Source: Flexistipes sinusarabici DSM 4947 (GTDB lineage: Bacteria; Chrysiogenota; Deferribacteres; Deferribacterales; Flexistipitaceae). From it: DNA of 64,000 nucleotides. This document shows positions 32,995-62,121 of the stretch, in pieces. Every line of letters begins with the position of its first letter. Position 1 is the stretch's first letter. The DNA lies in the NCBI RefSeq assembly GCF_000218625.1, contig NC_015672.1, forward strand, positions 1,647,451 to 1,711,450, read 5' to 3'. Below the pieces are notes generated by a model that saw only the letters and a list, made by a program, of their open reading frames with translations, ran no database searches and was not told where the DNA came from. Position numbers and translations under genes: made by a program.

Positions 32995-33098
<104 letters not shown>

Positions 33099-44684: not shown

Positions 44685-44726
44685 AATAGTACAAAAATTA
44701 AATAATTGATCATAAAAAATAATGGT

Positions 44727-44750
44727 GCCTGAGGGGGGACTCGAAGGCTA
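44727..44750 (-). other. tRNA 3'-end fragment (T-loop to CCA) with no 5' half. Putative attachment-site remnant marking the island boundary
   Basis: Minus strand reads TTCGAGTCCCCCCTCAGGCACCA: T-loop TTCGAGT, T-stem 3' strand, acceptor 3' strand, discriminator, CCA. No complementary 5' partners upstream. Confidence 0.4.
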
Positions 44751-44911
44751 AATTGCATATTTTATTAAGTTACAGAAAATGATACAAAGTGAAGTAAAAT
44801 GTTTATATAACAATAAGTTACAAAGTATTGCTGTTTCATTCTATATAATTCCTGATAACGTTTTTTAACAATTTTTGTCAACTTATTGTCCACCTTTTTT
44901 GGCATATATAT

Positions 44912-45460
44912 TTAATCTTTTCCCCCCTTTTTCTCTTTAATTATTCCGCGCGTTTTCATGTAATTATACAAAATCGGATATTTAATATTTAATTCTTTTG
45001 CAATATCAGCCACCCTTTTATCATCTTCCAGATACTTTTTTCTTATATACTCAATTTGTTTATCTAACGGGGATCTTTTAGTGCCAAAAGGTCTTCCTTT
45101 TTTTTCCGCTTGTTTTGAACGTATTTTTAATAACTCATTATTTAGAGTTTTGACTAAATCAAAGTATTTTGCAATTTCTGGAAAATTAATATGATCAATT
45201 TGAATGCCTTCTTCACAAAAATATATATCTGTGTCTTGCGATACAATGTCAGAGATTTCAGTCAAAATGTCTCTTAAACTCGTATTCCCGACTAAATATT
45301 GAACATTTTTCGAAAAAAGCCTCGAATTATTATCGAGAAACGGTTTGATAATTTTTACATTATCGCACGGTACAGTAGTACCCTTAATTTTATGCTTTTT
45401 AAAATAGCTATCATAAAAATTCTTCTCTTCAGGGTCTTTAAGAATTATATAATTTAACAT
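44912..45460 (-). CDS. Small DNA-binding protein with C-terminal resolvase/Hin-type HTH; no recombinase catalytic domain recognised
   Basis: C-terminal KKGRPFGTKRSPLDKQIEYIRKKYLEDDKRVADIAKELNIKYPILYNYMK. First gene inside the AT-rich island. Confidence 0.45.
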   Translation of the reverse strand: MLNYIILKDPEEKNFYDSYFKKHKIKGTTVPCDNVKIIKPFLDNNSRLFSKNVQYLVGNTSLRDILTEISDIVSQDTDIYFCEEGIQIDHINFPEIAKYFDLVKTLNNELLKIRSKQAEKKGRPFGTKRSPLDKQIEYIRKKYLEDDKRVADIAKELNIKYPILYNYMKTRGIIKEKKGGKD

Positions 45461-45617
45461 TTTACCCTCTTTTTACGTCTATTAAAATTTAGTAATTTTC
45501 TTAATAAAAAGTCAAGATTAAAAATAACAAAATATGGTAAAAATAATATTTTATTAATCAACAATAAGTCGAGCAATTATTCTTAGATTTATAAGCTTTT
45601 TTATAAATTTAAAAATT

Positions 45618-45965
45618 GGCTGCCACATTACCATTTAGCAATTTAGTGGAGCTAAGCGTTTACCTGGACGCTACGGAACTGGTTTTTACGGTAAGCGTTC
45701 ACATAATTCTAAGCGGAACTATTACATGATTCATGCATAGCAGCCAAAGGGCGGAAAACTGCGGGAAAATCCAAGAGGACTTATACTAAGGCAAGACAGA
45801 GTGTTAAGTGACAAGGGAACACTTAGAATAAAGATTTACGTGGGCTGGTTATATTAAGTGAAGTCGGTGTATTAAGGGAGAATAATGTGGCACGGCGGGT
45901 TTAACTCTATGTGCGGAACTGATATTACGCATAGTATCGCCCGCCCTGATGGGGATTAGTTTTTT
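45618..45965 (+). ncRNA. Candidate structured ncRNA (GC-rich block in an AT-rich intergenic region)
   Basis: Long-range helix tgccacatt (45621-45629) with aatgtggca (45877-45885). 3' hairpin ggcggg...ctatgtgcg...cgcatag...cccgcc (about 45892-45945) followed by a T run. Internal repeat gcggaact (twice). No ORF. Confidence 0.25.
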
Positions 45966-46369
45966 CCTGTTTGTTTTCAATCTTGCTGATGAATTTTATC
46001 CTATCCATGCCTGCGAGAAGTGACAATATCACGGAATGTCCAAACTTGCTGTTTGCTGCCTTTTAATATCGATTTATATAGAAATAATAAACTTACTCTT
46101 ATTGCTAAATCAATTATTAAAAAGTATTTTCCAGAGTAAAATAGGCAATAAATTAAGGTTTATTGCTTTGGCTTTTTCGGCTTTCTTTATTATCAGATAT
46201 TTACAAAAAGCCAAATAAGCAATAAAATGCAATAAACATACGATAAACTAAAGAATACTTTCATGTTATCAATAGTTTACTAAAGCAATAAAATTAGATT
46301 TCATATAATTTGATATTATCTGCCGCGGGGAACGAATAAGTCTGATAAAGAATTTATCAAACTATTTTA

Positions 46370-47050
46370 TTAATTTGTTTTTTTATTTTCGATTTTTGAT
46401 GCAATTTTCAGTCTTTCCAGTGATCCTAAAATCGGCAAAACCACATAATGTCCGAACTTACTGTCTACTACTTTCGTTAGGTGGTGCATTCTTCTGAGAA
46501 AGGCTATGAGCTGTATGCCCTCATAAGCACGTAAACCAGCCTGCTTAATTGCCTCTCTGATTTCTTGCTCTTTCCCGCTGGTCAAATATCCCACAAGACG
46601 CAAGTAATAAACGATAGTGTCAATTTGTTTGTTTGTTATTTCCCGAGAAGCATCTGGCGACTCAAAAAACATCTCTTTATAAACTTGGCCTGTATATATA
46701 TTCAGACTGGTTCTGGATAAATATTTTGAATATTTAATGCGAATATTCTTATACTCTGAGCTATCTGTAAACTTTTCCCACGTTAATTCATCTTTCGACC
46801 TCTTATACAAATAACTGTAAGTGTCAGCAATTTCTTTACGGAAGGGTTCCCCCATACCGTTAAGTTTTACAGTTCTTTTTTTCCCGCTCTTTTCCGCCTC
46901 TTGCTCCCGAAATACTTTACGCACATACTTATCGCTTGCACCGACCTGAGACTGGATGTTAAGCACATCCTCACGAGTAAGTATATTCTTATTCTTAATC
47001 AGACTGAGGATGTGTTCCTTTTTGGACACATATTGTTTCTGGTCTGACAC
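46370..47050 (-). CDS. Hypothetical protein, 226 aa (island)
   Basis: ORF with basic N-terminal region. Lies downstream of the 20-bp iterons. Confidence 0.4.
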   Translation of the reverse strand: MSDQKQYVSKKEHILSLIKNKNILTREDVLNIQSQVGASDKYVRKVFREQEAEKSGKKRTVKLNGMGEPFRKEIADTYSYLYKRSKDELTWEKFTDSSEYKNIRIKYSKYLSRTSLNIYTGQVYKEMFFESPDASREITNKQIDTIVYYLRLVGYLTSGKEQEIREAIKQAGLRAYEGIQLIAFLRRMHHLTKVVDSKFGHYVVLPILGSLERLKIASKIENKKTN

Positions 47051-47337
47051 ATGACACCCCTCTAAGCGGTTCTGGTAATTTACTTCGCACTATTTTTTTT
47101 ATTGGTTACTTATATGTTCAATGAGCGTAACTTTTCACGAAAGTATAAATAAATTATTTATAAAAAACTTATTAAGTTTTTATTTAAAACTGTTTCTTTT
47201 GTTTCCCCCTGGAAACAACTTTATTTTAAACTTGTTTCCAATGCTGTTTAATTTACGTTTTAAATATAAAAAAACAAGAAAAAATATCTGGAATATTTTG
47301 ATGCTGTAAAAACCATTTAGAGTATATGTAAAATTGC

Positions 47338-47427
47338 GTCAAAATAAGTTACAGTTGTCCAAATTGTGTCAAATTGCGTAACATAGTGTCAAATTGAGTT
47401 ACAAAGAGTCAAATTAAGTAACAGGTA
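47338..47427. repeat. Four to five tandem 20-bp iterons GTCAAATTnnGTTACAnnnn
   Basis: Units start at 47338, 47368, 47388 and 47408, plus a partial unit at 47357. Confidence 0.6.
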
Positions 47428-47510
47428 TACTTATTTCTGATCCGTTAACATCAATACGTCGGATTTTAGGATAAATATTTATAATATCTTTTGCAGAGTT
47501 CCTTATGATC

Positions 47511-48425
47511 TCATCTTTCTTCCATTTTTTCCAGACTGTCCTGAAGATATTTTTTTAGTGTTTGCTTATAATAATCGGGATTTTTTATTTTAATAAACGG
47601 CGCCCAACGCAGTATTTGCAACAGAAAATCCATTTCGTTATAAACTTCAAAAGTTACTTCGATACTGCTTTCGCCTTCACCTGTTATTTTTTGGTTCGTC
47701 AAACAGGATTTCCTTTTAAAATAATCAGCTACTGAATTATCAATTTCCATAGTAATTTTATCTTTGTCATGCTCATTAAACCAAATATTATTAGCATCTT
47801 TTATTATTTCGTCTATATCATCCCTATGACTAAACACATTACCTGTGGTTTTTATTTCTGAGATTTGATCCACAACAAATTTCTTCAGGCAATCTTCATG
47901 ATCACCCAGTAAGTACCAAAAGCCGTCAGATAAGATTATTCTATATGGTTTTACCGTATAATTACGGCTATATCTTTCATAAAAGAAAGTGATTTCGTTT
48001 TGTTCCTTTATTGCAATTTCTAAATCATTTAATACTGAGGATATGTTTTCAAAACCAATCATATTTTCTTTAACAAAATCGTATGAGAAAGTGATACCGT
48101 TTAGGTGAAATATTTTACTTTTTAATTTATCCAGGTATTTCGCGGAATCATTGTTAACATCCCTTTTCAAAAAATCAAACAAAGCACCTACGTAAGACAA
48201 CTCAGTTTGTGATAAAAAAGTTCCTTCAAAAGAATAACTATCTATCAAAGAATAGCTGTTGTCTTTTTCATTATGTACTACTCCAGGAATAATGGACAAT
48301 TCGAGTAAATATCTTTGAGCCGTTCTGATGCTTACTCCAAGTTCTTCAGAAACTTTTTTTGAATCAATCTTCTTGTTTTCATTTAAAAGTTTTATCAAAC
48401 CCAGTGCTGTATATAGTTTATTCAT
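47511..48425 (-). CDS. wHTH-WYL domain transcriptional regulator (BrxR/CapW-like)
   Basis: N-terminal HTH_11 (VSIRTAQRYLLEL). Central WYL motif (FWYLLGDHED). Length 304 aa. Confidence 0.7.
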   Translation of the reverse strand: MNKLYTALGLIKLLNENKKIDSKKVSEELGVSIRTAQRYLLELSIIPGVVHNEKDNSYSLIDSYSFEGTFLSQTELSYVGALFDFLKRDVNNDSAKYLDKLKSKIFHLNGITFSYDFVKENMIGFENISSVLNDLEIAIKEQNEITFFYERYSRNYTVKPYRIILSDGFWYLLGDHEDCLKKFVVDQISEIKTTGNVFSHRDDIDEIIKDANNIWFNEHDKDKITMEIDNSVADYFKRKSCLTNQKITGEGESSIEVTFEVYNEMDFLLQILRWAPFIKIKNPDYYKQTLKKYLQDSLEKMEER

Positions 48426-48442
48426 AAAACTCCTTTAGCAAA

Positions 48443-48790
48443 TTATTCACTCAGCCCTACAATAACAGTAATTTCACTTTCATTGCCTATTTTAACTGCT
48501 TTAAGATATTTGTTAAAGGAAATCTCATTATCTTCCAAAAAATCGACAAACTCATTAATTTTGTTGAACCCATCATTTGATAGAATTGAATAAAGAATTA
48601 TTGCATTACCATTTTTTCTTTTTCTTAAATTTGTTATTTGATTAAACTTTGAGATATCATTGAAAAAAAAGAAACTAAATTTCCTAAAACCCGAAAGATG
48701 TTTTTCAATATCTTCCGGGCTTATAGAAACGTAACAATCACAAAAACCATTATTACATACATAATCTTTAATACGCTCAACCATGCACAC
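48443..48790 (-). CDS. Hypothetical protein, 115 aa; 17 bp upstream of the WYL regulator
   Basis: ORF apparently co-transcribed with the regulator. Confidence 0.4.
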   Translation of the reverse strand: MCMVERIKDYVCNNGFCDCYVSISPEDIEKHLSGFRKFSFFFFNDISKFNQITNLRKRKNGNAIILYSILSNDGFNKINEFVDFLEDNEISFNKYLKAVKIGNESEITVIVGLSE

Positions 48791-48819
48791 CTCCTTTTTA
48801 ATATACTCACACGGCTGAG

Positions 48820-48834
48820 CGTCGAAATCTGACG
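48820..48834. promoter_or_regulatory. CGTC-N7-GACG palindrome (cgtcgaaatctgacg) in the divergent promoter region
   Basis: Seen in sequence. Lies between the 48443(-) and 48878(+) genes. Confidence 0.45.
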
Positions 48835-48877
48835 TATATTTCTTTTAAATTAAAGATGATTTATTTAGGAGGTTTTT

Positions 48878-49510
48878 ATGAAATCAGTATCTTATGCTAT
48901 CAACAACATTCTGGACGCTTGTAATAAAGAAGACGGTCTATGGATTGGAAATACCCGAAAAGGCATCGAAGTAAGCGAAAAGAAAGAAATCGAAAATTTG
49001 TTTGACCTTATAATTTCAGGTAACACAATACTGGACAACATTTTAATTCTCGAAATCGAGGAGCCTTGCTTTTCAAGAAAATTCATAGCTAACTATTGGT
49101 CTGACCTTAATTTGAAAAAATTTTTCCAAAAGAGAAACTCTCAAAAGACTTTACTTTTGTGCAATGGACAGAGCTTGCAGGATATTTATATCGGGTTAAA
49201 GGGAAGCTATGACAAGCAAGAATTGTATTTCAACGTGATAAGCAGCAGTAGCCAAAATTCAAAAACCACGAATAAATTTAAGTTCTTACCCTACCCTTAT
49301 ATTGAAAAGACCGGAGTCTGGATTAAAGCAAAAGACCTGATTAATTCAGAAGTAAATCCTGACAAAATAATCAAAAAAATTGGAAACAAAATACCTGAAA
49401 ATGTTATAAGCAAAAAATATGATTTGATAAAAGCAAATATTCAAAGTTTTATCAATGAGTTTTCAATCAAAAAGAATGCTCATATAAAAATCATTAACGT
49501 TAACAATTAA
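48878..49510 (+). CDS. Hypothetical protein, 210 aa (island)
   Basis: RBS aggagg upstream. Divergent from the 48443 gene. Confidence 0.45.
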   Translation: MKSVSYAINNILDACNKEDGLWIGNTRKGIEVSEKKEIENLFDLIISGNTILDNILILEIEEPCFSRKFIANYWSDLNLKKFFQKRNSQKTLLLCNGQSLQDIYIGLKGSYDKQELYFNVISSSSQNSKTTNKFKFLPYPYIEKTGVWIKAKDLINSEVNPDKIIKKIGNKIPENVISKKYDLIKANIQSFINEFSIKKNAHIKIINVNN

Positions 49511-49570
49511 ACACTGCAATTCCATTTTCTATTGAGCTTCTTGAAATCCATATAAAATTATTTCACAAAA

Positions 49571-50068
49571 CTATTCCACTTCAATAACATTTGTTTTCTC
49601 AATACTAAATACTTCTTTTAATTCAGCTAATGTGCGTAATTTCACATCATTAACTTTTAAATATTTCATATAATTCTTGAATCCAGAGTCAGTTTTAAAT
49701 TCTTTCAAAATTTCCAGGTAGAATTCAGGAAAATATTCTGATTCATAGAAAAATTCACACTCTTTCAAGTGCCCTTTATTATCCGTATGAAAAATGAATA
49801 TCCCGATATTTGAGAAAAACAAGAAATAATCATCTGCTGAAAAAATACCTTCCTTTTCTGACATTGTATTGAGGTAAAAAGTGCCGCAACATTTTCCATA
49901 AAATTCATCATTTTTATCAGATATGCATTCACATATTCCGGTAATAAAAGAATTTCTAAGTTCGTTATTTAATTTTTCCTGAGAAATTTCATTGCAGGTT
50001 TTGGATAACAAGAAAATTATAAAATCATACATCTGCTTAAATTTAACTATTTCTACAGACTTCTTCAC
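49571..50068 (-). CDS. Hypothetical protein, 165 aa, Cys-rich (CECISDKNDEFYGKCCG)
   Basis: ORF with RBS. Confidence 0.45.
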   Translation of the reverse strand: MKKSVEIVKFKQMYDFIIFLLSKTCNEISQEKLNNELRNSFITGICECISDKNDEFYGKCCGTFYLNTMSEKEGIFSADDYFLFFSNIGIFIFHTDNKGHLKECEFFYESEYFPEFYLEILKEFKTDSGFKNYMKYLKVNDVKLRTLAELKEVFSIEKTNVIEVE

Positions 50069-50105
50069 AAAAACCTCCTAATAAATGATTAAGCTTGAAT
50101 TTAAA

Positions 50106-50603
50106 TTAGTCATCATCCCACTCACTTACCCCAGCTTTCTTGCCGGTTTCTCCAGTATCCCATAGCAAAACCATGTTTTCTACTCCGCCTTTCTTCACAT
50201 CTGTCCCTATTTGAATATTACCCAGTTTCTTTGATTTGATATAAAGAGTAATTCCAAGCATACTATCATAATCCAGTATACCATCGTATTCCTCAACTTT
50301 GACAGCTTCATTTGTCTCCACATTTTCATAGACAAACCTACTGCCGCTGATAAGATTTACCTGCTCTTCGTCGTCAATAGACTGAAATCCGGTGTTCCCC
50401 GCAGCTACCATATCCAGTACTTCTCCAGTAAGATTTACTAAAAACACATCATCTACCATATTTTTTTCACTATTAGTCCTTACAAGCCAAAGCAAAGGTT
50501 TTCTTTCCTCTACCTTATCAGACAACGGAAAAACAAATCTACCCTTTTGTTCGTGTGGCGGAGTCCAGTTAAACTGGTCTTTTACTCGTTTTTGTTTACT
50601 CAT
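50106..50603 (-). CDS. Hypothetical protein, 165 aa, acidic C-terminus (WDDD)
   Basis: ORF with RBS ggagga. CGTC-N7-GACG palindrome in its upstream region. Confidence 0.45.
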   Translation of the reverse strand: MSKQKRVKDQFNWTPPHEQKGRFVFPLSDKVEERKPLLWLVRTNSEKNMVDDVFLVNLTGEVLDMVAAGNTGFQSIDDEEQVNLISGSRFVYENVETNEAVKVEEYDGILDYDSMLGITLYIKSKKLGNIQIGTDVKKGGVENMVLLWDTGETGKKAGVSEWDDD

Positions 50604-50702
50604 ACTTCCTCCTTTTAAGTTTTTTGGGTTTATTGATAAATAATGAAATCGTTAGGATTTTGAAAAAGAATTATCTTTTCAAATGTAAAATAGTTCTTTA
50701 AT

Positions 50703-50719
50703 ACGTCAGAATCCGACGT
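50703..50719. promoter_or_regulatory. ACGTC-N7-GACGT palindrome (acgtcagaatccgacgt) upstream of the 50106..50603 gene
   Basis: Seen in sequence. Confidence 0.45.
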
Positions 50720-50972
50720 TAGAAATTAAAATTACAGAAAAAAACAAGGTGTCTTTATGCAGATTCATGCAAAAATCGTCAAGCTCTTCTTCTGTCATAT
50801 CAAGGATTTCTCTCTTTTTAGCTATATCTTGGGCATAAGAATAAAAAAATTCTCTGTATTTTTTATCTTTTGTAATATCAGAAATGAGACTCAGTTTTTG
50901 TTCCAGATCAAGCTGTGAAACAAGCTCTTTTATCTGGTCATACTTAATTTCAATTTCTTTTAGTTTGGGCAT
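50706..50972 (-). CDS. Hypothetical small protein, 88 aa
   Basis: ORF, probably a helical protein. Confidence 0.35.
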   Translation of the reverse strand: MPKLKEIEIKYDQIKELVSQLDLEQKLSLISDITKDKKYREFFYSYAQDIAKKREILDMTEEELDDFCMNLHKDTLFFSVILISNVGF

Positions 50973-51174
50973 AATTTACTCTCGAATAACAACATGTATT
51001 TATTATAATAAATTTAAATTTACAAAACCATTATTTCAATATTAATAATACACTCACACTTTATTTACTACATTACAAAAAAAACAAATTATTTATTTTT
51101 TCGTATTTGGATAATTATTATTGAAATACGAAAAATAGTTGCATTGTTCATTCTTATGAATTAAAATAAGTATT

Positions 51175-52578: not shown

Positions 52579-52677
52579 AAATATTTAAGGCTTAAAAATT
52601 AACGGGTTCTCAAGCTCAGCATTTTGGTCTGTAATTACAAAAATTCAAAGATAAGATAATTATATCTTAAACTGCAA

Positions 52678-52692
52678 CGTCAGGTATTGACG
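52678..52692. promoter_or_regulatory. CGTC-N7-GACG palindrome (cgtcaggtattgacg) upstream of the AddB-like gene
   Basis: Exact reverse complement of 59053-59067. Same motif class as 48820 and 50703. Confidence 0.5.
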
Positions 52693-52779
52693 CATCTTTG
52701 TGCCAATAAAAAACCAAGAAAGATTTTCGTTTAGATGTAATAAATGCTATAATTTGCAATTATTTATTGTGGGTGAATC

Positions 52780-55700
52780 ATGAAATCAGTCTTAAAGTCT
52801 TTGGAAAACATCTGTTCTAAAAATATTACAAAGCGAAAAATACTTGTGATGCCGAGTTACACAGAAGGCTTAAGCCTATTGAATGCTCTTGCTCTTAACA
52901 ATGTAAATATCGCCAATATAAAAGTAGAAACACCCTTAAGTCTCGCAAAAGATATTTCAAAAATGAGCCTATATAAATCCGGCAAAGATTTTTTAGACAG
53001 ATCAAGTGCAAGATATGTTGTTTTAAACTTATTTAACCAGCTTCTGACAGAGAATAAGCTTAAATATTTTCAACAATTATCACCATCTGTAGGGGTAATC
53101 AGTGAATTGGAAAACGTTTTATATGAACTCAGAATTACAGATTACACCCATATAAATTTTCCTGTAAATTCTTTTATAGATCCTGAAAAAGAACACGACA
53201 TTAAAACATTACTGCAAAAATACGAAAACTATCTTGAAAATAATAACCGCATCGATGAGCCAGGTTTGTATAAACATAGCATACAAATGTTGCAAAAAGA
53301 CAGCTTTCATAAAGACAAGCTTTTTCTGATACCGGCTAATCTGGAACTGCCTTTACTCTCCAAAAGTTTTATCTCAATGCTTACGAAAAATAATCATGAA
53401 ATTATAAAATTCGCACAATTAAAAAGCTTAAATGTCCCTGAAAATTATTACTCAAATAATCCATATTCGGATACAATAGATAACTGCTTCAGCTGGCTTT
53501 ATGAGCTTAATAATTCCGAAAATTTGGACAAAAACCCCGGTTTTGAAATATACAGAGCATACGGCGAGTCAAATGAAGCCAAAAAAGTGATAAGAGTACT
53601 CAAGAGAGATGCAATAAATCTTGATGATGCTGTTATTTATACGACCTCTTCCCAACTGTATAATCAAATTCTCTATGATTTATCATGCACATACAATATT
53701 CCCATGACTTTTGAGGAAGGGATAAGTGTATCAAATACTTCTCCCGGTAAGCTTTTATTATCAGTTCTGGAATGGATTTCAGAGAAATACAGTGTTCCAA
53801 AATTTTGTACAATGTCCACAGGGGGATTTTTCAAATTTAGCAACAATGAAATCTCACCATTAAAAATAAGTAAAATACTTAAAGAAAGCAAGATTGCCTG
53901 GGGCAAAAAACGGTATAAAAAAATATTGGAGAATGAGTTAACGAACACTACAAATGATTATAAAATAGAAATTTTAAATGTCGTTCTTTCAGAGCTTAAT
54001 AGTATTTTTGACGAAATACCCGATACAGAAAACACTTCATCTATATCTTTATCTGAGTTTTCGAAAGGCTTAGTAAACATACTAAACAAACATACCCGAA
54101 TAAGAAATGAGACAGACGCATCAGCTTTAACCACACTTACCGAAAATCTTTCAAACTTGGCAGATTATTCAACACAGGAATTTCAGGAAAAAGAAATAAT
54201 AAAGATGCTTAAAAAACTTGTATATGGCATTAATATTAATGCCTCCTCAGCCAAGCCCGGTCATATTCATGTCACTAATTTTCAAAACGGAATCTGGCAT
54301 AACAGAAAGCACAATTTCATTTTAGGTCTTGATGCTGAAAAATTCCCCGGTAAAGGTGGTGAAAGCCCGTTTTTGCTTGATATGGAAAAGGAGCGTATTG
54401 GAAAAATTCAGACAAGTATTCAAAGGAAAAGCAGAAATATTTATAAAATGACAGAACTTCTTGCTAACACAAATGGCAAAATATATGCAATGTTCACCAA
54501 TTACGATACTGAGGCGGCGAGGCTCCAATCCCCATCCTCTTTACTACTGCAAATTTACAGACTACAGGAAAAGCTTGATAAAAGCACACCGGATAAAGAG
54601 CACATCGAAAGCTATCTGCCTTTTAAAAATAGTGAGAAAGAGATTCTTGATGAGACAGAATTATGGTTGCACAAAGCTTTTTATTCCGGTGGTATCAAAA
54701 ACAATGAAGAAATATTCCCTTCTGTTTACCCTGTATTTAATAAAGGTCTTTTTGCATTAAGTGAAAGGCAAAGCAGCATAAATGAGTATAACGGCTGTGA
54801 GTTAAACATAAGTGATGAAATTGTTAATAAATTACTTTATGAAAAGACCTTCTCAAACTCAAAACTTGAAACAATGGGCAGTTGTCCCCTCCGATTTTTC
54901 TTTCAACATATACTCTATCTAAAACCTCTTGAGGAATATGAGTATGACCCGTGGAGGTGGCTGGATCCTTTGGAAAGAGGAACGTTATTACACAGGATTT
55001 TTGAGCTGTTTTATAAAGAATTAATAAATAAAAAAGAAATGCCGGAATTAGATAAGCATATGGGTTTGTTAGAAAATATAGCAAAAACGGAAACTGAAGA
55101 ATTAAAAGATTTATTACAGCCTCCAAGTGAAACTGTATATGAAAGTGAATTTAATGAAATTTTAGATTCCTGCCGTATATTTCTCCAGAAAGAATCCACC
55201 AAATTATCCAAAGAAGGTCATCCTCTATATTTAGAGCTTTATTTCGGTAATTACCCCGAAAGTGAAGGTTCCAGTTTCCCGACGGCTGTGTTTACATTGC
55301 CATCAGGCAGAAAAATACAGCTTAGCGGTAGAATCGACAGGATTGATCAGTTAAATAACGGAAGCTATAAAATAATTGACTATAAGACAGGAAGTACCAG
55401 AGATTACAGCAGTAATGAATATTTCAAAAAGGGTAAACAGCTTCAACACGCTTTATATTCTTTGGCTTTCGAAAAGCTCATGGGGAATAAATACAAAATT
55501 TCACAATCCGGATACTATTTTCCAACAACCAAAGGCGAAGGCTCAGAATACATGTATCCACCAAGTGACGGAAAACATAAAAGAGAAGAAGTATTGGAAA
55601 TCGTTGACATTCTTCTTGATAATATTGAGAACCGTTTCTTCCCGCCCGTTAAGTATGATAACAAAAATGATTCATGTAGATTCTGCGACTATAAAGAGAT

Positions 55701-55797
55701 ATGCGATAGAGAAAAAAATGATTCATTAACAAAGATGCTGGAATATGAGGAAAACAAATACCTTCAAAATTACAGGAGGATTGAAAGCTATGAGTGA
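52780..55797 (+). CDS. addB: AddB/RexB-like helicase-nuclease subunit (no Walker A; RecB nuclease plus Fe-S cysteines)
   Basis: C-terminal PD-(D/E)XK (GRIDRIDQL...YKIIDYKTGS). Cysteines GSCPLRF...CRFCDYKEIC. Confidence 0.65.
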   Translation: MKSVLKSLENICSKNITKRKILVMPSYTEGLSLLNALALNNVNIANIKVETPLSLAKDISKMSLYKSGKDFLDRSSARYVVLNLFNQLLTENKLKYFQQLSPSVGVISELENVLYELRITDYTHINFPVNSFIDPEKEHDIKTLLQKYENYLENNNRIDEPGLYKHSIQMLQKDSFHKDKLFLIPANLELPLLSKSFISMLTKNNHEIIKFAQLKSLNVPENYYSNNPYSDTIDNCFSWLYELNNSENLDKNPGFEIYRAYGESNEAKKVIRVLKRDAINLDDAVIYTTSSQLYNQILYDLSCTYNIPMTFEEGISVSNTSPGKLLLSVLEWISEKYSVPKFCTMSTGGFFKFSNNEISPLKISKILKESKIAWGKKRYKKILENELTNTTNDYKIEILNVVLSELNSIFDEIPDTENTSSISLSEFSKGLVNILNKHTRIRNETDASALTTLTENLSNLADYSTQEFQEKEIIKMLKKLVYGININASSAKPGHIHVTNFQNGIWHNRKHNFILGLDAEKFPGKGGESPFLLDMEKERIGKIQTSIQRKSRNIYKMTELLANTNGKIYAMFTNYDTEAARLQSPSSLLLQIYRLQEKLDKSTPDKEHIESYLPFKNSEKEILDETELWLHKAFYSGGIKNNEEIFPSVYPVFNKGLFALSERQSSINEYNGCELNISDEIVNKLLYEKTFSNSKLETMGSCPLRFFFQHILYLKPLEEYEYDPWRWLDPLERGTLLHRIFELFYKELINKKEMPELDKHMGLLENIAKTETEELKDLLQPPSETVYESEFNEILDSCRIFLQKESTKLSKEGHPLYLELYFGNYPESEGSSFPTAVFTLPSGRKIQLSGRIDRIDQLNNGSYKIIDYKTGSTRDYSSNEYFKKGKQLQHALYSLAFEKLMGNKYKISQSGYYFPTTKGEGSEYMYPPSDGKHKREEVLEIVDILLDNIENRFFPPVKYDNKNDSCRFCDYKEICDREKNDSLTKMLEYEENKYLQNYRRIESYE

Positions 55798-58700
55798 TCA
55801 AGCTCTAAAGGACAGTCACGCAAGAAAGAAAATAATAAATGATCTTGATACAAATTTTTTAGTGGAAGCCGGTGCAGGTTCCGGTAAGACTTCAAGCCTT
55901 GTTAAAAGGATTACGTCTTTAATCACTAACGGAAAAAATAAAATCTCAGAAATAGCCGCTATTACTTTTACCAAGAAGGCTGCTTCTGAGCTTATGGAAA
56001 GACTTTTAAATGAATTGGAAGACCGACATAATTCAGAAACAGACCCTACCATAAAAGAGAACCTATATGATGCGATAAACAACTTTGACCAGTGTTTTAC
56101 CGGTACAATACACTCATTTTGCTCCGGCATATTGAGGGAAAGACCTGTGGAGGCTGGAGTTGACCCGGATTTTGATGAAATAGATGATTCAGACGAGTTT
56201 GGTTTGATTACTGAAGTCTGGAACGAGTTTATCAAGTCCACAAGAGCTGAGAATCCTGATATGCTAAAATTGACGGAGAAAATTGGGGTATCGCCTGAAG
56301 AGCTTCAGGATAGTTTTGTTATGCTGAATAAATATCCGGAAATCAAAATACACGCTGAAAAATCTGAAAAACCGGATTTAAAGCCTGCGGTTAAAAAAGT
56401 ATTAGAAATCTGTAAAGAGGCTTCAAAATACATTCCTGATGAAGAACCGGATAAAGGGTACGATGCTTTTCAGAAAAATGTGCAATCAACGCTCAGACTT
56501 TTAGAATATAGAAATCTCTATGAAGATAAGTATGCAATAGAAATATTAACAAAATTTGAGAAAACACCCAAAATAACACAAAACAGATGGCTTGATAAAA
56601 AAACTGCAAAAAATTTCCAGGATGTAATACTGCCGGATTTGGTTGAAAACACTGTTTATCCGGTATTAAGAAAACACAGGGAACATATTTATACTTATTT
56701 TATAGATTTTTTTCAAGATGCACTAACATATTATGAAAACAAGAGGAATCAGGAATCAATTCTGAATTATAACGATCTTCTGACACTTACCTCAAAGATG
56801 CTAAGAAATAATTCAAAAGTAAGAGAATATTTTCAAAATAAATACAAGACAACTCTGGTGGATGAGTTCCAGGATACCGATCCCATACAAGCTGAAATTA
56901 TCATGTATTTGACCGGAGAAGATTTAAAGGAAACCGATTGGAGTAAACTGAGACCCAAAAAAGGCTCACTTTTTGTAGTTGGTGATCCAAAACAGTCAAT
57001 ATACAGATTCAGAAGAGCTGATATAGATATTTATAACTTTGTAAAAGAAATTATTTCACAAACAGGCGGTGAAATACTCGAATTAACTTCCAATTTCAGA
57101 TCATTAAACAGCATAGCTGATTATCTCAATCCTGTTTTTGAAGAAAGGTTTCCTGAGAGTGGTGACAGGTATCAGGCACCTATGGCAAAGATCCGTGCAA
57201 TCCGTGAAAACAATTATGAACACGGTGTAAAAAAGATATTAGTCCAATGTGACTCCAGAAAAAAAGAAGATGTTGTTGAAATTGACGCTGAAAATATAGC
57301 AAGATATATAAAATATGCTGTAGACGGTGGAATAAAATTAGCCCGAAATGAGGAAGAAAAATCTAAAGGACTTAATGAGAAGCCTGTATATTCAGATTTT
57401 TTGATAATAACCAAACATAAAGATTTGCTGGAACAATATGCAAACACACTGGAAAAATACGGAATTCCTTCAACTGTAACCGGTGATGATTTTTTCAGCC
57501 AGTCAGAAGAGATAAACCATATTTATAAGCTCCTTAAATTTCTCAGTAAACCGGATGATGAGATACTCTTAGTATCAGTACTAAGAGGTATGTTTTTCGG
57601 TTTGAGTGATAATGACTTGTACCAGTTTAAAGCATCAAATGGGTATCTCAATATCTTTAGCAGTATACCGGAATCGCTGGATGAAAACATCAAAAATCTT
57701 TTTAATAACTGTTTTTCAACACTTCGCAAATATAAAAAGATTATCAATGAGTTGCCACCATCGTCAGCTTTGGAAACAATCTTTCAGGACTTAGGGATTT
57801 TACCCTATACATCACTGAAGAACTTATCAAAAAGCCGGGCTGCAAACATTTATTTTTTAATAGAACAAGTCAAACAGAAGGAAACTACCGAATTTTACTC
57901 ATTTGGAAATGTAGTCAACCATATAGGCAGATTGTTAGAGTCAAAATTTGAACAGAGAAACAGCCTCGAAGTTGAAAGCAATTGCGTGAGAATAATGAAT
58001 TTGCATAAAGCAAAAGGTTTGGAAGCACCTGTTGTTTTTCTTGCCCACCCTCACAAAAATACTAAACACGACCCAACTCAGCATATTAACAGACGAGAGG
58101 GCGAACCTATAGGTTATTTTGCACTAACTAAAAAGAAAGGGATACACCATAAAAAAATTTTTGCTCAACCTAAAAATTGGGAAGAATTCCAGGAAGAGGA
58201 ACAAAAATTTTTAGATGCTGAATTTGAAAGACTTGTCTATGTGGCAGCAACGAGGGCTAAAAATCTCCTTATAATAAGCTGTAAAGAAAAAGGCAATGGG
58301 AGTCAGAACCCCTGGCTGAGCCTGCTGGGTAATTTAAAAGATGACGATGTAATAGATGTACCTGATGTCAGTATAGAGCATGATTCAGGTGTAAATGAAT
58401 TATCCGTAAAAGATATAAATGATAAAAAAGCTGAGATCAGTCATTGGAGGCATTCTGTGTCAGAAGAGAATTATTCAAACATGACCCCCACAGAAGTAAA
58501 AGATTTGGAAAAAATATTTGCCGGTGAAAGGCTCGAAGGCGGCGGTCAGGACTGGGGTACCGCTGTGCATAATTTTTTAGAGTTTGCTGTAATGACCAAA
58601 GATACCGGATATGAGGATTTGGATACTTATATAAAATTTACTTTTGAAGAGCTGGATATAAGCTCTGACAGAACAGAGGAAGCTAAAAAAATAATAGAAG

Positions 58701-59038
58701 ATTTTAAACAAACAGACTTATTTAACCGAATAAAAAATGCCGAACAAGTGGAGACGGAAGCCCCCATTTCTATGAAAATTAATCCGGAATCCGAAATCAT
58801 GAATTTGTTTAATACTAAAACGAGTAACAAGCCTATAATCCTGGCAGGCGTAATTGACCTTGTGTTTAAAGAAAAGGACGGCTGGGTAATTATAGATTAC
58901 AAAACCGACAGAGTTAATTCCGAAGAAGAATATGAAAAACTCAGGCAGGCCTATTTAAATCAAGTGGAAATTTATGCAAAAGCATGGGAAGAGATAACCG
59001 GTGAAAAAGTAAAAGAGAAAAATATATACTTTGTATGA
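55790..59038 (+). CDS. addA: AddA/RexA-like UvrD-family helicase with C-terminal RecB nuclease
   Basis: Walker A AGAGSGKTS. Motif II LVDEFQDTD. Motif III GDPKQSIYRFRRAD. Motif VI VYVAATRAK. Nuclease GVIDLVF...IIDYKTD. Overlaps the addB stop by 8 nt. Confidence 0.8.
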   Translation: MSDQALKDSHARKKIINDLDTNFLVEAGAGSGKTSSLVKRITSLITNGKNKISEIAAITFTKKAASELMERLLNELEDRHNSETDPTIKENLYDAINNFDQCFTGTIHSFCSGILRERPVEAGVDPDFDEIDDSDEFGLITEVWNEFIKSTRAENPDMLKLTEKIGVSPEELQDSFVMLNKYPEIKIHAEKSEKPDLKPAVKKVLEICKEASKYIPDEEPDKGYDAFQKNVQSTLRLLEYRNLYEDKYAIEILTKFEKTPKITQNRWLDKKTAKNFQDVILPDLVENTVYPVLRKHREHIYTYFIDFFQDALTYYENKRNQESILNYNDLLTLTSKMLRNNSKVREYFQNKYKTTLVDEFQDTDPIQAEIIMYLTGEDLKETDWSKLRPKKGSLFVVGDPKQSIYRFRRADIDIYNFVKEIISQTGGEILELTSNFRSLNSIADYLNPVFEERFPESGDRYQAPMAKIRAIRENNYEHGVKKILVQCDSRKKEDVVEIDAENIARYIKYAVDGGIKLARNEEEKSKGLNEKPVYSDFLIITKHKDLLEQYANTLEKYGIPSTVTGDDFFSQSEEINHIYKLLKFLSKPDDEILLVSVLRGMFFGLSDNDLYQFKASNGYLNIFSSIPESLDENIKNLFNNCFSTLRKYKKIINELPPSSALETIFQDLGILPYTSLKNLSKSRAANIYFLIEQVKQKETTEFYSFGNVVNHIGRLLESKFEQRNSLEVESNCVRIMNLHKAKGLEAPVVFLAHPHKNTKHDPTQHINRREGEPIGYFALTKKKGIHHKKIFAQPKNWEEFQEEEQKFLDAEFERLVYVAATRAKNLLIISCKEKGNGSQNPWLSLLGNLKDDDVIDVPDVSIEHDSGVNELSVKDINDKKAEISHWRHSVSEENYSNMTPTEVKDLEKIFAGERLEGGGQDWGTAVHNFLEFAVMTKDTGYEDLDTYIKFTFEELDISSDRTEEAKKIIEDFKQTDLFNRIKNAEQVETEAPISMKINPESEIMNLFNTKTSNKPIILAGVIDLVFKEKDGWVIIDYKTDRVNSEEEYEKLRQAYLNQVEIYAKAWEEITGEKVKEKNIYFV

Positions 59039-59052
59039 GTTTTAAGAATTAA

Positions 59053-59067
59053 CGTCAATACCTGACG
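59053..59067. promoter_or_regulatory. CGTC-N7-GACG palindrome (cgtcaatacctgacg) after the AddA-like gene and upstream of vapBC
   Basis: Reverse complement of 52678-52692. Confidence 0.5.
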
Positions 59068-59163
59068 CAATCCTCTTTAATAATAATTTTCACTTGAAGA
59101 TTGCATAATAAGCTTAAAAAGTATATATTGAAGTATATACTTTTCAAAAAGGAGTTATTAATA

Positions 59164-59391
59164 ATGGATACTGCAAAAATATTTGAAAACGGAAAAAGTC
59201 AGGCTGTCAGGTTACCCAAAAAATACAGGTTTGACAGCGATGATGTGTTTATAAAAAAAATTGATGACATCGTTGTATTAATTCCTAAAGATAAAGTCTG
59301 GCAAATTTTTAGTTCATCTTTGGACAAATTTTCGGAAGATGTAGATTTTCAAAAAGACAATTCTATACCACAGGAAAGAGAAGAAATATAA
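59164..59391 (+). CDS. vapB: VapB-type antitoxin (AbrB/SpoVT-like)
   Basis: MDTAKIFENGKSQAVRLPKKYRF. Stop overlaps the PIN toxin start. Confidence 0.65.
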   Translation: MDTAKIFENGKSQAVRLPKKYRFDSDDVFIKKIDDIVVLIPKDKVWQIFSSSLDKFSEDVDFQKDNSIPQEREEI

Positions 59392-59793
59392 ATGTCTTAC
59401 CTTTTTGATACAAACATATGTATTTACATCATAAAAAATAAGTACAAACAAATTGCAAAAAAAATGCAGGAAGCTGGATTAGAAAAAATTTGTATCTCTG
59501 CTATTACCGTTGCAGAGTTAGAATACGGTATATCAAAAAGCTCCAAAAAGGACGAAAACAGGATTGCGTTGCTGGAATTCCTTATTCCGTTTACAGTATT
59601 AAATTTTGATCAAAATGATGCCAGAAAATACGGTCAAATCAGGTACAATTTGCAAAAAGCAGGCACACCTATTGGTAACATGGATTTGCTTATTGGATCC
59701 CAGGCTTTGGCAAGAGATATGACTCTGATAACAAATAACGAAAAAGAATTCAGCCGGATACAAGGGTTAAAAATAGAAAACTGGATTAAATAG
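59392..59793 (+). CDS. vapC: VapC PIN-domain toxin
   Basis: PIN motifs LFDTNICIY, ...TNNEKEF. Confidence 0.8.
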   Translation: MSYLFDTNICIYIIKNKYKQIAKKMQEAGLEKICISAITVAELEYGISKSSKKDENRIALLEFLIPFTVLNFDQNDARKYGQIRYNLQKAGTPIGNMDLLIGSQALARDMTLITNNEKEFSRIQGLKIENWIK

Positions 59794-59814
59794 AAATTTT
59801 ATACGGAGAATCTC

Positions 59815-60261
59815 ATGTCTGACATATGTTTTTTAAGACCAACAGCAGCAAAGCGTATTGAAAACTGGCTTAACAGCAACAATTACTCATTACATAACGG
59901 TTATTTTACGCTGGAGTACAATTTTTCTCCGATTGTAGATGATGGAATTATTCTGAGTTTTATTGATAACAAAACGGGCGATATTCACAAATTAGTTGTA
60001 CAGGATGATATTGAAGGTATTATTGAACCTGATGAAGAATGTTCAGTATCACAAATAAGTATTGATTACATCCCCCTATCCCTTGAGCTTACTCCGGAAA
60101 CTTTGGAAAAATTTTCAGAAATAGAATCAAGAAAATTTGAGGCGGAAGTTGAAGAGTTAGTAGAACCTGTAGGTTGCGGAATAAAATTTGAAATCTATTC
60201 AGACAGCTATGCAATTTTCGCCTGCAAAAAGGAATTGCAACGCACTCAAATCGGAGAATAA
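59815..60261 (+). CDS. Hypothetical protein, 148 aa
   Basis: ORF only. Confidence 0.4.
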   Translation: MSDICFLRPTAAKRIENWLNSNNYSLHNGYFTLEYNFSPIVDDGIILSFIDNKTGDIHKLVVQDDIEGIIEPDEECSVSQISIDYIPLSLELTPETLEKFSEIESRKFEAEVEELVEPVGCGIKFEIYSDSYAIFACKKELQRTQIGE

Positions 60262-60271
60262 TCCTTTATTC

Positions 60272-61885: not shown

Positions 61886-62121
61886 GTCGTAATCCCTTCA
61901 AAACATTTGCGCAATATCTCATCGCAAATGTTTCTGTTCAGAGCTTGCTGGAAATCAGGTCATTAATTCCAATAGTATATCTTAACTTAACAAATGGATT
62001 AGAAGACTTTTGTCGTAATCCCTTCAAATCAGGTCATTAATTCCAATTCGGGTGCTGCGTATTATGCAACTGCTCCCACGGAAGGGGTCGTAATCCCTTC
62101 TAATCAGGTCAATTCCGAAAA
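61886..62121 (+). CRISPR. CRISPR mini-array A: interrupted first repeat, one canonical repeat, degenerate terminal repeat
   Basis: 36-nt repeat GTCGTAATCCCTTC(T/A)A(A/G)TCAGGTCAT(GG/TA/GA)ATTCCAAT. Spacers of 38-39 nt. Terminal repeat degenerate (gtcgtaatcccttctaatcaggtcaattccgaaaat). Confidence 0.8.

What the first reader, a model, noticed from the sequence alone, without database searches (positions are those of the whole stretch)
44700..60270. Integrated island bounded by a tRNA 3'-fragment att remnant directly after recJ
Just after recJ, the minus strand carries a tRNA 3' end (TTCGAGTCCCCCCTCAGGCACCA) with no 5' half. This is the classic direct-repeat remnant left by integrase-mediated insertion into a tRNA gene. 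From this point GC content drops. Gene content switches to an HTH/recombinase-like DNA binder, unknown ORFs, toxin-antitoxin, an IS element and CRISPR arrays. Two aagttaca(g/a)a motifs near the fragment resemble the 20-bp iterons at 47338.
Basis: partly seen in the sequence, partly recalled or inferred. Interest (0 to 1): 0.6.

Follow-up and report, generated by a model that had tools for sequence, protein, structure and literature searches.

The report
tRNA-Leu genomic island beside recJ
The short tRNA piece after recJ is the scar of a large, defence-gene-rich island that a tyrosine integrase inserted into a tRNA-Leu gene of Flexistipes sinusarabici; this is a textbook kind of island, and here its integrase is broken.

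Summary
A 23-nt tRNA 3' end lies at 44723-44745 on the minus strand, 38 bp after recJ, and the window holds no tRNA gene. GC falls from 0.382 to 0.325 beyond it.

The window is Flexistipes sinusarabici DSM 4947. The cognate intact tRNA-Leu(AAG) sits 39 loci further on, outside the window. A tyrosine integrase gene precedes it and yjbQ follows it. The intact tRNA and the fragment share an exact 24-bp direct repeat.

Three Flexistipes lineages carry three different islands at this same recJ/tRNA-Leu/yjbQ site. One strain is 99% identical in the flank up to exactly base 44745 and then diverges.

The stated end, 60270, is not a boundary. It is only the edge of an IS5-family insertion. The island continues through the CRISPR arrays and beyond base 64000.

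The DSM 4947 integrase is frameshifted to 349 aa, against 410 aa in sister strains, and lacks the catalytic C-terminus. The island is probably locked in place.

Cargo is defence-like: WYL regulator, DUF234 ATPase, AddAB-like nuclease, VapBC, CRISPR.

Verdict: correct but ordinary, a new member of a known kind.

The parts
43056..44684 (+). recJ (Flexsi_1578). This is the conserved chromosomal flank on the attR side.
   Evidence: DHH, DHHA1 and RecJ_OB domains. Named RecJ of F. sinusarabici DSM 4947. The flank is 93-99% identical in relatives up to base 44745-44762.
44722..44745 (-). attR core: the displaced 3' end of tRNA-Leu(AAG). It comprises T-loop, 3' T-stem, 3' acceptor strand, discriminator A, CCA and one flanking base. 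It forms a 24-bp direct repeat with the 3' end of the intact tRNA.
   Evidence: Unique in the window. Exact 24-bp match to L011 2860-2883, which lies inside the intact tRNA-Leu at L011 2861-2949. Identity with strain L004 stops at 44745.
44766..44822 (+). Two direct TAAGTTACA copies (44766-44774 and 44814-44822). The second overlaps ACAATAAGTT (44810-44819), an inverted copy of the centre of the 18-mer. Candidate protein-binding sites in the P' arm.
44876..44893 (+). 18-mer TGTCAACTTATTGTCCAC, a candidate integrase arm-type site 131 bp inside attR. An identical copy lies 45 bp inside attL, within the 3' end of int.
   Evidence: 0 of 2000 shuffles give a shared word this long. It is conserved at both ends in all F. 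sinusarabici strains retrieved. The L003 island has the same geometry with a different 17-mer. The integrase has an Arm-DNA-bind_2 domain.
44912..45460 (-). Flexsi_1579, 182 aa. C-terminal invertase/resolvase-type HTH only; the N-terminal domain has no detectable family.
   Evidence: No Pfam hit. PHROG DNA-invertase model matches residues 116-178 only. The PDB sequence search gave only spurious hits.
45600..46030 (.). Noncoding stretch richer in GC (about 0.44, against about 0.22 in its flanks). Its length varies between strains. It holds copies of a CGCTTAG-type motif.
   Evidence: No Rfam match. Folding z-score is about 0 on both strands.
46370..47050 (-). Flexsi_1580, 226 aa. An all-helical orphan protein found only in Flexistipes-type sequences.
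   Evidence: Only one homologue outside its own cluster, at 72% identity. No Pfam, PHROG, PADLOC or NCBIfam family. The AF2 model has low confidence, pLDDT 53.
47338..47423 (+). Four copies of GTCAAATTRAGTWAC, mostly 20 bp apart (starts 47338, 47368, 47388, 47408). They lie upstream of the 226-aa gene, beside a very AT-rich stretch (47075-47300), and overlap a promoter-like site on the minus strand.
   Evidence: Repeats of the same kind lie upstream of the 72%-identical homologue in L027.
47511..48425 (-). Flexsi_1581, a WYL-domain transcriptional regulator (HTH-WYL-WCX).
   Evidence: Pfam WYL, WCX and HTH_11. PADLOC CRISPR-associated WYL models, E = 9e-25.
48443..50972 (.). Five small genes with no assignable function: 115/113, 210, 165, 165 and 88 aa (Flexsi_1582-1586). 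They form part of a backbone shared with a Flexistipes-like metagenome lineage whose AddB is 64% identical.
   Evidence: L020 is 88.6% identical over 48643-50742.
51175..52578 (+). Flexsi_1587, an ATPase_2/DUF234 ATPase. It is a candidate defence gene (PADLOC PDC-S27) and a variable cassette.
   Evidence: Replaced by a RelE-type TA pair in L020-L024.
52780..59038 (+). AddB-like (1005 aa) and AddA-like (UvrD helicase plus PD-(D/E)XK nuclease) gene pair, Flexsi_1588 and Flexsi_1589.
   Evidence: Pfam. NCBIfam addA/addB hits fall far below the equivalog cut-offs. The nearest non-Flexistipes AddB is 32% identical, from Desulfosporosinus.
59164..59793 (+). VapBC-type toxin-antitoxin pair: MazE/AbrB-fold antitoxin and PIN toxin.
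   Evidence: Pfam. Called genes of 75 and 133 aa. Named a VapC family toxin.
59815..60261 (+). Flexsi_1592, 148 aa, function unknown. It is the last gene before the IS.
   Evidence: Synteny with strain L007 ends at 60262.
60271..61779 (-). IS5/IS4-family insertion sequence (455-aa transposase at 60337-61704). It is one of many copies in this genome, with imperfect terminal inverted repeats at 60273-60287 and 61763-61777. It marks a strain-specific synteny break, not an island end.
   Evidence: Pfam DUF772 and DDE_Tnp_1. Many identical or near-identical copies in DSM 4947. Inverted repeat pair I10. Break relative to L007.
61886..64000 (-). CRISPR mini-arrays with a 36-nt repeat and 4-5 unique spacers each. 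They are separated by three identical 300-nt units and lie inside the recJ to tRNA-Leu interval. They are probably transcribed on the minus strand.
   Evidence: In other genomes the same repeat lies next to type III-A or III-B cas genes and a CARF-deaminase.

Best explanation
The sequence at 44722-44745 is the attR scar of a genomic island that integrated by site-specific recombination into the 3' end of the tRNA-Leu(AAG) gene. In the ancestral arrangement that gene lay between recJ and yjbQ, convergent with recJ.

How the integration worked:
- A circular element carried an attP that mimics the T-loop-to-CCA part of the tRNA.
- Its own tyrosine integrase (an arm-binding N-terminal domain plus a Phage_integrase catalytic domain) recombined attP with the tRNA gene.
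- The element supplied a new 3' end, so an intact tRNA-Leu remains next to int (attL, outside the window).
- The original 3' end was displaced and stayed next to recJ (attR, in the window).

The 18-mer TGTCAACTTATTGTCCAC lies 45 bp inside attL and 131 bp inside attR. Together these are most likely the arm-type sites at which the integrase, and possibly an accessory DNA-bending or directionality protein, assemble the intasome.

The island spans Flexsi_1579 to Flexsi_1617. The window shows only its recJ-proximal 19 kb. Its visible cargo is mostly defence or addiction functions: a WYL regulator, a DUF234 ATPase, an AddAB-like helicase-nuclease, VapBC and type III-type CRISPR arrays. These are shuffled between strains as cassettes and by IS activity.

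In DSM 4947 the integrase is frameshifted just before the RHTYAT...LGH...Y catalytic motifs. The island is therefore probably fixed in this strain.

Shown: the repeat, the intact tRNA, the integrase, the alternative occupancy of the site in relatives, the GC shift and the frameshift.
Inferred: the recombination event itself, the arm-site function, and that the whole interval was once a single element.
For: - Fragment unique in the window; no tRNA gene in the window.
- Organism and locus tags.
- Intact tRNA-Leu(AAG) with an adjacent integrase and yjbQ on the strain's own assembly. The accession order is recJ AEI15228 ... int AEI15266, yjbQ AEI15267.
- Exact 24-bp direct repeat.
- L003 has recJ, a remnant, a 6.5-kb island with a 39%-identical integrase, intact tRNA-Leu, then yjbQ.
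- L004 and L005 have 99%-identical flanks up to 44745, then a 62-nt tRNA-Leu fragment and an unrelated (22% identical) integrase.
- GC and per-gene GC drop.
- The 18-mer lies at both inner ends, is conserved in all strains, and was not reached by 2000 shuffles. The L003 island has the same geometry with a different 17-mer.
- Arm-DNA-bind_2 plus Phage_integrase domains; PHROG integrase, E = 4e-51.
- Frameshift: 349 aa against 410 aa, with the loss starting at the RHTYAT motif.
- No further att copy in any visible part of the interval, allowing up to 6 mismatches in the window and up to 5 in the loci.
- Cassette-like variation between strains.
Against: - The DNA between window base 64000 and the HD-domain gene upstream of int (about 22 loci) could not be read. 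I therefore could not exclude internal att remnants there, which would indicate tandem accretion of several elements.
- No relative with an empty recJ/tRNA-Leu/yjbQ site was found, and no excised circle is documented.
- Identity between DSM 4947 and sister strains is about the same inside the island (96-98% to L012, 92% to L018) as in the flank. The island is therefore an old resident of the species, not a recent arrival.
- Part of the backbone, including the AddAB-like genes, is shared with a lineage whose AddB is only 64% identical. That could mean some of it is long-standing chromosomal content.
- The 18-mer at attL lies inside the int coding sequence, so its conservation there may partly reflect coding constraint.
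- The frameshift rests on assemblies of what appears to be the same strain's reads.
Confidence: 0.85

Rival explanations
1. The interval between recJ and tRNA-Leu is not one island. It is a tandem accretion of several independent insertions at the same tRNA hotspot, plus IS-mediated additions. Only the outermost att pair survives, and the recJ-proximal module (44746 to about 48400) and the int module need not have arrived together.
For: - The site is demonstrably a hotspot with at least three different occupants.
- Content is mosaic between strains. There is a PLD/SNF2 insertion in L007, RelE TA and type I R-M in L020, and dynamin-like GTPases, NOV_C and McrBC in L025/L028.
- An IS-associated synteny break lies at 60262.
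- The HD gene next to int is truncated in DSM 4947, 176 aa against 289 aa.
Against: - No second tRNA-Leu fragment occurs in any visible part of the interval, allowing up to 6 mismatches in the window and up to 5 in L007, L012, L020, L025 and L028.
- The same 18-mer lies inside both ends with arm-site geometry, which ties the two ends to one attP.
- Both end modules are conserved together in all F. sinusarabici strains retrieved.
Confidence: 0.3
2. The region 44700-60270 is a discrete island in its own right, ending at the IS element, as the coordinates of the finding imply.
For: GC is low through 60270 and rises in the IS and CRISPR region: 0.367 and 0.41. Synteny with strain L007 breaks at 60262.
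Against: - There is no att repeat, tRNA or recombinase at or near 60270.
- The break coincides with the terminal inverted repeat of an IS5-family copy.
- In L007 the island simply continues with other genes.
- The cognate tRNA and integrase are 24 loci further on.
Confidence: 0.03
3. The fragment is unrelated to integration. It would be a decayed tRNA pseudogene or a chance tRNA-like 3' end serving, for example, as a transcript terminator or processing signal for the convergent genes.
For: The fragment lies between two convergent genes (recJ and the 182-aa gene), where terminators are expected.
Against: - It is exactly identical over 24 bp to the 3' end of a tRNA gene that sits next to an integrase.
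- Relatives keep fragments of different lengths (about 20, 23 and 62 nt), each paired with its own integrase.
- Flank identity ends at the fragment edge.
Confidence: 0.02

Closest known systems
tRNA-gene-targeting genomic islands and prophages mobilised by lambda/P4-type tyrosine integrases. On my own recollection, in K. P. Williams' classification of tRNA integration sites this falls in the class where the identity block runs from the T-loop to the 3' end.
   Same: - A direct repeat made of the tRNA 3' end.
- An intact tRNA regenerated next to int, with the displaced fragment at the far end.
- An integrase with an arm-binding N-terminal domain, and repeated arm-type sites on both sides of the core.
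- Lower GC than the host.
- Accessory and defence cargo.
- Alternative occupants of the same tRNA in close relatives.
   Different: - The integrase is frameshifted in this strain.
- No phage structural genes and no conjugation genes appear in the visible parts.
- Identity to sister strains is equal inside and outside the island, so it is an old, vertically inherited resident.
- The host is a member of Deferribacterota. I found no description of islands in this host in the searchable literature.
The 6.5-kb island at the same tRNA-Leu in Flexistipes sp. GCA_036172515.1 (locus L003)
   Same: - Same attB (3' end of tRNA-Leu(AAG)) and same orientation.
- The integrase is 39% identical and is adjacent to the intact tRNA.
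- A 17-mer is repeated about 55 bp inside attL and about 105 bp inside attR. About 17 nt of island sequence next to the core are similar.
   Different: It is much smaller and carries different cargo: an NmeDI-like, Dcm and Vsr restriction-modification module. Its arm-site sequence differs, and its integrase is full-length.
Defence islands: clusters of anti-phage systems in variable genomic hotspots
   Same: A WYL regulator, a PDC-S27-type ATPase, a helicase-nuclease pair, TA modules and CRISPR arrays. In sister strains the same interval holds type I R-M, PLD/SNF2, McrBC, NOV_C and dynamin-like GTPases. These genes are exchanged as cassettes.
   Different: Defence activity has not been tested for any gene here, and several backbone genes have no recognisable family.
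Iteron-regulated plasmid replicons (Rep gene, iterons and an AT-rich region)
   Same: Four phased 20-bp repeats lie next to a stretch of 19-23% GC, upstream of a small helical DNA-binding-like protein. The cassette (repeats, gene and downstream motif) recurs in another context in L027.
   Different: The 226-aa protein matches no Rep family or any other family. The repeats overlap a promoter-like site, which fits an operator equally well.

Membership tests
tRNA-integrated genomic island (tyrosine-integrase type) | Direct repeat formed by a tRNA 3' segment at both ends of the inserted DNA | tested here: met
   24-bp exact repeat: window 44722-44745 equals L011 2860-2883.
tRNA-integrated genomic island (tyrosine-integrase type) | Intact cognate tRNA gene at one end, in the orientation predicted from the fragment | tested here: met
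   tRNA-Leu(AAG), on the minus strand at L011 2861-2949, on the yjbQ side as predicted. Accession order recJ ... int, yjbQ.
tRNA-integrated genomic island (tyrosine-integrase type) | Element-encoded tyrosine recombinase adjacent to an att site | tested here: met
   Arm-DNA-bind_2 plus Phage_integrase domains. In sister strains the gene ends at the core repeat.
tRNA-integrated genomic island (tyrosine-integrase type) | Integrase catalytically complete (second Arg, His/Trp and the Tyr nucleophile), meaning the element is still mobile | tested here: not met
   The DSM 4947 protein is 349 aa and is frameshifted just before RHTYAT...LGHSS...RKY. Sister strains have 410 aa. This bears on present mobility, not on origin.
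tRNA-integrated genomic island (tyrosine-integrase type) | Absent from, or replaced in, closely related genomes with conserved flanks | tested here: met
   L003, L004 and L005 carry other islands. L004 flanks are 99% identical up to base 44745. An empty site was not found.
tRNA-integrated genomic island (tyrosine-integrase type) | Compositional deviation from the host | tested here: met
   GC 0.325 against 0.382, outside the range of equal-size upstream windows.
tRNA-integrated genomic island (tyrosine-integrase type) | Excision to a circle, with restoration of attB | not testable with these tools
   This needs PCR or read-level evidence from strains with the intact integrase.
Prophage | Phage structural, packaging or lysis genes | tested here: not met
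   No such PHROG or Pfam hits among the visible genes. No DNA match in the phage collection for 44690-48450. The 22 loci beyond the window were not seen.
Integrative conjugative or mobilisable element | Relaxase, coupling protein or type IV secretion genes | tested here: not met
   None among the window genes or the int-proximal 20 kb of sister strains. The unseen loci were not tested.
Serine recombinase (resolvase/invertase), considered for the 182-aa protein | N-terminal catalytic domain with the Ser nucleophile | tested here: not met
   No Pfam Resolvase hit. The PHROG invertase model aligns only to residues 116-178, the HTH. No PDB resolvase match.
Iteron-type replicon | Recognisable Rep initiator next to iterons and an AT-rich region | tested here: inconclusive
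   Iterons and an AT-rich region are present. The 226-aa protein is an orphan with a low-confidence model.
AddAB helicase-nuclease | Scores above the NCBIfam equivalog cut-offs for AddA and AddB | tested here: not met
   AddB scores 83 bits against a cut-off of 904; AddA scores 359 against 708. The domain architecture (UvrD plus two PD-(D/E)XK nucleases) is AddAB-like.

The most novel reading that the evidence does not exclude
The attR-proximal module may be a previously undescribed maintenance or excision-control unit of a Deferribacterota integrative element. The module comprises the phased 20-bp repeats, the orphan 226-aa protein, the conserved CGCTTAG-motif noncoding stretch and the 182-aa HTH protein. 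It could be an iteron-controlled replicon that lets the excised island persist as a plasmid, or a new recombination-directionality system whose protein also binds the AATAAGTTACA sites next to attR.
Probability: 0.12. Interest if true: 0.4.

Novelty: new member of a known kind. Interest (0 to 1): 0.25.

Why it matters
The result documents a tRNA-Leu integration hotspot in Flexistipes with exact junctions, candidate arm sites and at least three competing occupants. It shows that the CRISPR arrays and several defence-like genes of the type strain lie on an integrase-delimited island, not in the core chromosome. This helps annotation and studies of defence-island turnover in a poorly studied phylum. 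It does not change how such islands are understood.

Tried and rejected
- A genome-contig search with RecJ found no relative. The source genome appears not to be available in the searchable collections. I therefore worked through exact-protein look-ups and the assembly of SRR072740, whose contigs carry proteins identical to those of DSM 4947.
- DNA of 44690-48450 has no match in the plasmid or phage collections.
- I suspected that the GC-rich noncoding stretch 45600-46030 was a structured RNA. There is no Rfam hit even at E up to 10. Folding z-scores are +0.02 and -0.35. Its length varies between strains. Its conserved parts look like repeated short DNA motifs shared with L027. I dropped the RNA idea and leave the stretch as an unexplained protein-binding-like region.
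- The 226-aa protein returned nothing useful. The word-indexed search found 2 hits. The exhaustive HMMER search found 1 full-length homologue plus two giant repeat proteins matching residues 119-175. The AF2 single-sequence model has pLDDT 53, so no fold search was run.
- The PDB sequence search for the 182-aa protein gave only spurious antibody hits.
- I considered that the 18-mer near attR was a relic of a second int 3' end from a tandem element. I rejected this because no core-like sequence follows it, and because the L003 island shows the same two-sided geometry with its own motif.
- I could not obtain the DSM 4947 sequence between base 64000 and the HD gene upstream of int. The exact island length is therefore unknown.

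Full report
**1. What is there**

The 23-mer TTCGAGTCCCCCCTCAGGCACCA occurs once in the window, at 44723-44745 on the minus strand, with none expected by chance. It begins 38 bp after the stop codon of recJ (43056-44684; DHH, DHHA1 and RecJ_OB domains).

The 23-mer reads as T-loop, 3' T-stem, 3' acceptor strand, discriminator A and CCA. ARAGORN finds no tRNA gene anywhere in the 64 kb. The sequence upstream of the fragment on the minus strand is unrelated to the rest of the tRNA.

GC falls from 0.382 (1-44721) to 0.325 (44746-60270). That is outside the 0.373-0.390 range of equal-size upstream windows. Per-gene GC differs with p = 2e-5.

**2. Identity of the window**

Exact-sequence look-ups place the window in Flexistipes sinusarabici DSM 4947, whose chromosome is 2,526,590 bp. 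recJ is Flexsi_1578 (AEI15228), and the genes that follow are Flexsi_1579 onward. The genome paper (PMC3236037) gives a genome GC of 38.3%, reports 86 transposase genes and lists 'CRISPR repeats 0'.

**3. The cognate tRNA and integrase**

In Flexistipes sp. GCA_036172515.1 (L003) the order is as follows:
- recJ;
- a roughly 20-nt remnant;
- a 6.5-kb island holding a restriction-modification module, an HTH_17 protein and a tyrosine integrase;
- intact tRNA-Leu(AAG) on the minus strand;
- yjbQ, then tRNA-Pro, then pdxA, then rsmA.

I used yjbQ to find the DSM 4947 counterpart, AEI15267. It lies on a 3.7-kb contig (L011) assembled from SRR072740, which carries proteins identical to those of DSM 4947. 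L011 holds, in order:
- a truncated HD-domain gene;
- a 48-aa gene (Flexsi_1616, AEI15265);
- an integrase with Arm-DNA-bind_2 and Phage_integrase domains (AEI15266);
- tRNA-Leu(AAG) at 2861-2949 on the minus strand;
- yjbQ.

The last 24 bp at the tRNA 3' end (23 tRNA bases plus one flanking base) are identical to window 44722-44745. The orientation is the one predicted for integration into a minus-strand tRNA. The intact gene with int lies on the high-coordinate side, and the displaced 3' end lies next to the original downstream flank, recJ.

The accession and locus-tag numbering (AEI15228 to AEI15266; Flexsi_1578 to Flexsi_1617) puts 39 loci between recJ and the tRNA. Of these, 38 have GenBank protein records. 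The window contains the first 15 plus the CRISPR arrays.

**4. The site is a hotspot with alternative occupants**

Metagenomic contigs L004 and L005 are 99% identical to the window across 11 kb of left flank, and the identity ends exactly at 44745. Beyond that point they carry a longer, 62-nt 3' fragment of the same tRNA-Leu, starting in the anticodon stem. A different integrase (22% identical) and other cargo (HEPN/AbiU2, an SNF2-type helicase) follow directly.

L003 is 93-96% identical in the flank. It has its own island and an integrase 39% identical to the DSM 4947 one.

In contrast, several F. sinusarabici MAGs and metagenome contigs (L012-L019) have the same island end as DSM 4947. Their identity inside the island (96-98% for L012, 92% for L018) is about the same as in the flank. 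The island was therefore already present in the ancestor of these strains.

No genome with an empty site was retrieved.

**5.

The 18-mer TGTCAACTTATTGTCCAC occurs 131 bp inside attR (44876-44893). It also occurs 45 bp inside attL (L011 2797-2814, within the 3' end of int), in the same orientation. It is kept in every strain examined at both ends. None of 2000 shuffles gave a shared word of that length.

The unrelated-cargo island of L003 shows the same geometry with a different 17-mer, about 105 bp inside attR and about 55 bp inside attL. This is what is expected of arm-type sites for an integrase with an arm-binding domain.

An inverted copy of the centre of the 18-mer (ACAATAAGTT, 44810-44819) overlaps one of two direct TAAGTTACA repeats (44766-44774 and 44814-44822).

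The first of the four 20-bp iterons at 47338-47423 shares AATAAGTTACA with the second motif. AAGTTACAR is only modestly enriched: 5 copies against 1.6 expected, reached by 3 of 100 shuffles. The link between the iterons and the att-proximal motifs therefore remains a lead, not a result.

**6. The integrase is broken in this strain**

AEI15266 is 349 aa. Sister strains have a 410-aa protein that matches it up to about residue 334. The DSM 4947 reading frame then shifts immediately before YNMRHTYAT...QLGHSSFEMIFRKYG, which removes the second catalytic Arg, the His and the Tyr nucleophile.

Both the deposited genome and the independent reassembly give the same product. Unless this is a shared read error, the island cannot excise by itself in the type strain.

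**7. Extent and content**

The finding's right limit (60270) is the left end of an IS5/IS4-family copy. The transposase lies at 60337-61704 and the imperfect terminal repeats at 60273-60287 and 61763-61777. Strain L007 is collinear up to 60262 and then continues with other genes. No att copy lies there.

Visible cargo:
- an HTH-only 182-aa protein;
- an orphan 226-aa protein preceded by iterons and an AT-rich stretch;
- a WYL regulator;
- five small unknown genes;
- a DUF234 ATPase (PADLOC PDC-S27);
- an AddAB-like pair, well below the NCBIfam cut-offs, whose nearest non-Flexistipes relative is 32% identical;
- VapBC;
- a 148-aa unknown gene;
- the IS;
- CRISPR mini-arrays.

Sister strains swap cassettes at the same positions. 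These include RelE TA, type I R-M, PLD/SNF2, dynamin-like GTPases, McrBC and NOV_C. No phage structural genes or conjugation genes were seen.

No second tRNA-Leu fragment exists in any visible part of the interval, allowing up to 6 mismatches in the window and up to 5 in the loci.

**8. Verdict**

What had to be corrected:
- the island's extent;
- the identity of the recombinase;
- its present state, which is probably immobile.

The mechanism is the classical one for tRNA-targeting tyrosine-integrase elements. The case is a new member of a known kind, of modest interest.

What remains open:
- whether the 39-locus interval was one element or an accretion;
- what the iteron, 226-aa and 182-aa module does.

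Noticed in passing
window 61886-64000; also L031 495-860, L034 12440-13618, L032, L033, L035, L036: The CRISPR region is built of mini-arrays (4-5 unique spacers each) separated by three 100% identical 300-nt units at 62087, 62740 and 63399. Each unit ends in a 'split repeat': repeat nt 1-14, a 51-53-nt insertion, then repeat nt 16-36. The insertion holds a hairpin that, on the minus strand, is followed by TTTT, which looks like an intrinsic terminator inside a repeat. Two different hairpin sequences (CCCAGCC/GGCTGGG and CATTTGCG/CGCAAATG) occupy the same position. The same split repeat and about 215 nt beside it recur in other genomes at the leader-distal end of arrays. They lie next to type III-A (Csm) or III-B (Cmr) operons, and in L034 they form a tandem series of units about 190 nt long. 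There is no Rfam match.
   Followed up: partly
window 61886-64000: The genome paper for this strain lists 'CRISPR repeats 0' (PMC3236037), yet at least 15 copies of a 36-nt repeat with unique spacers are present here. In a Deferribacteraceae MAG (L030) the same repeat forms a 43-repeat array next to a CARF-adenosine-deaminase gene.
   Followed up: partly
window 45600-46030; L018 9664-10001; L027 1860-2012: A noncoding stretch richer in GC lies between the 226-aa and 182-aa genes. It is about 570 bp shorter in one MAG. It shares a 29-nt motif (AGTTCCGCTTAGAATTATGTGAACGCTTA) with the region downstream of a 72%-identical copy of the 226-aa gene in a different context. CGCTTAG also sits just upstream of the 226-aa start codon. 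There is no RNA-structure signal, so it may be a set of protein-binding sites.
   Followed up: partly
L011 2861-2949; L003 18132-18218: ARAGORN calls the target tRNA-Leu with anticodon AAG, meaning A at position 34. On my own recollection this is unusual for bacterial leucine tRNAs.
   Followed up: no
window 32574-32715 and 42594-42665; L011 21-115; L012 15949-16090; L004 9396-9602: A short repeated element of about 60-140 nt recurs at several intergenic places and at contig ends of short-read assemblies. It looks like a MITE/REP-type repeat.
   Followed up: no
window 32392-32497 and 32802-32859: Tandem 8-nt (GAGATAGG, about 13 copies) and 7-nt (ATAACCC, about 8 copies) repeats lie just upstream of the SRP RNA gene (32993-33091).
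   Followed up: no
window 46370-47050 (residues 119-175 of the product): A roughly 57-residue segment of the orphan 226-aa protein matches 28 repeated stretches in a 5,535-aa protein (P0107) and 16 in a 3,875-aa protein (P0108) from metagenomes.
   Followed up: no
L012 15096 onward, compared with window 40376: One F. sinusarabici-like strain loses synteny with the window to the left of the HU gene. It has ABC2-membrane and DUF4214 genes in place of the Orn/DAP decarboxylase, which indicates a rearrangement about 4 kb upstream of recJ.
   Followed up: no
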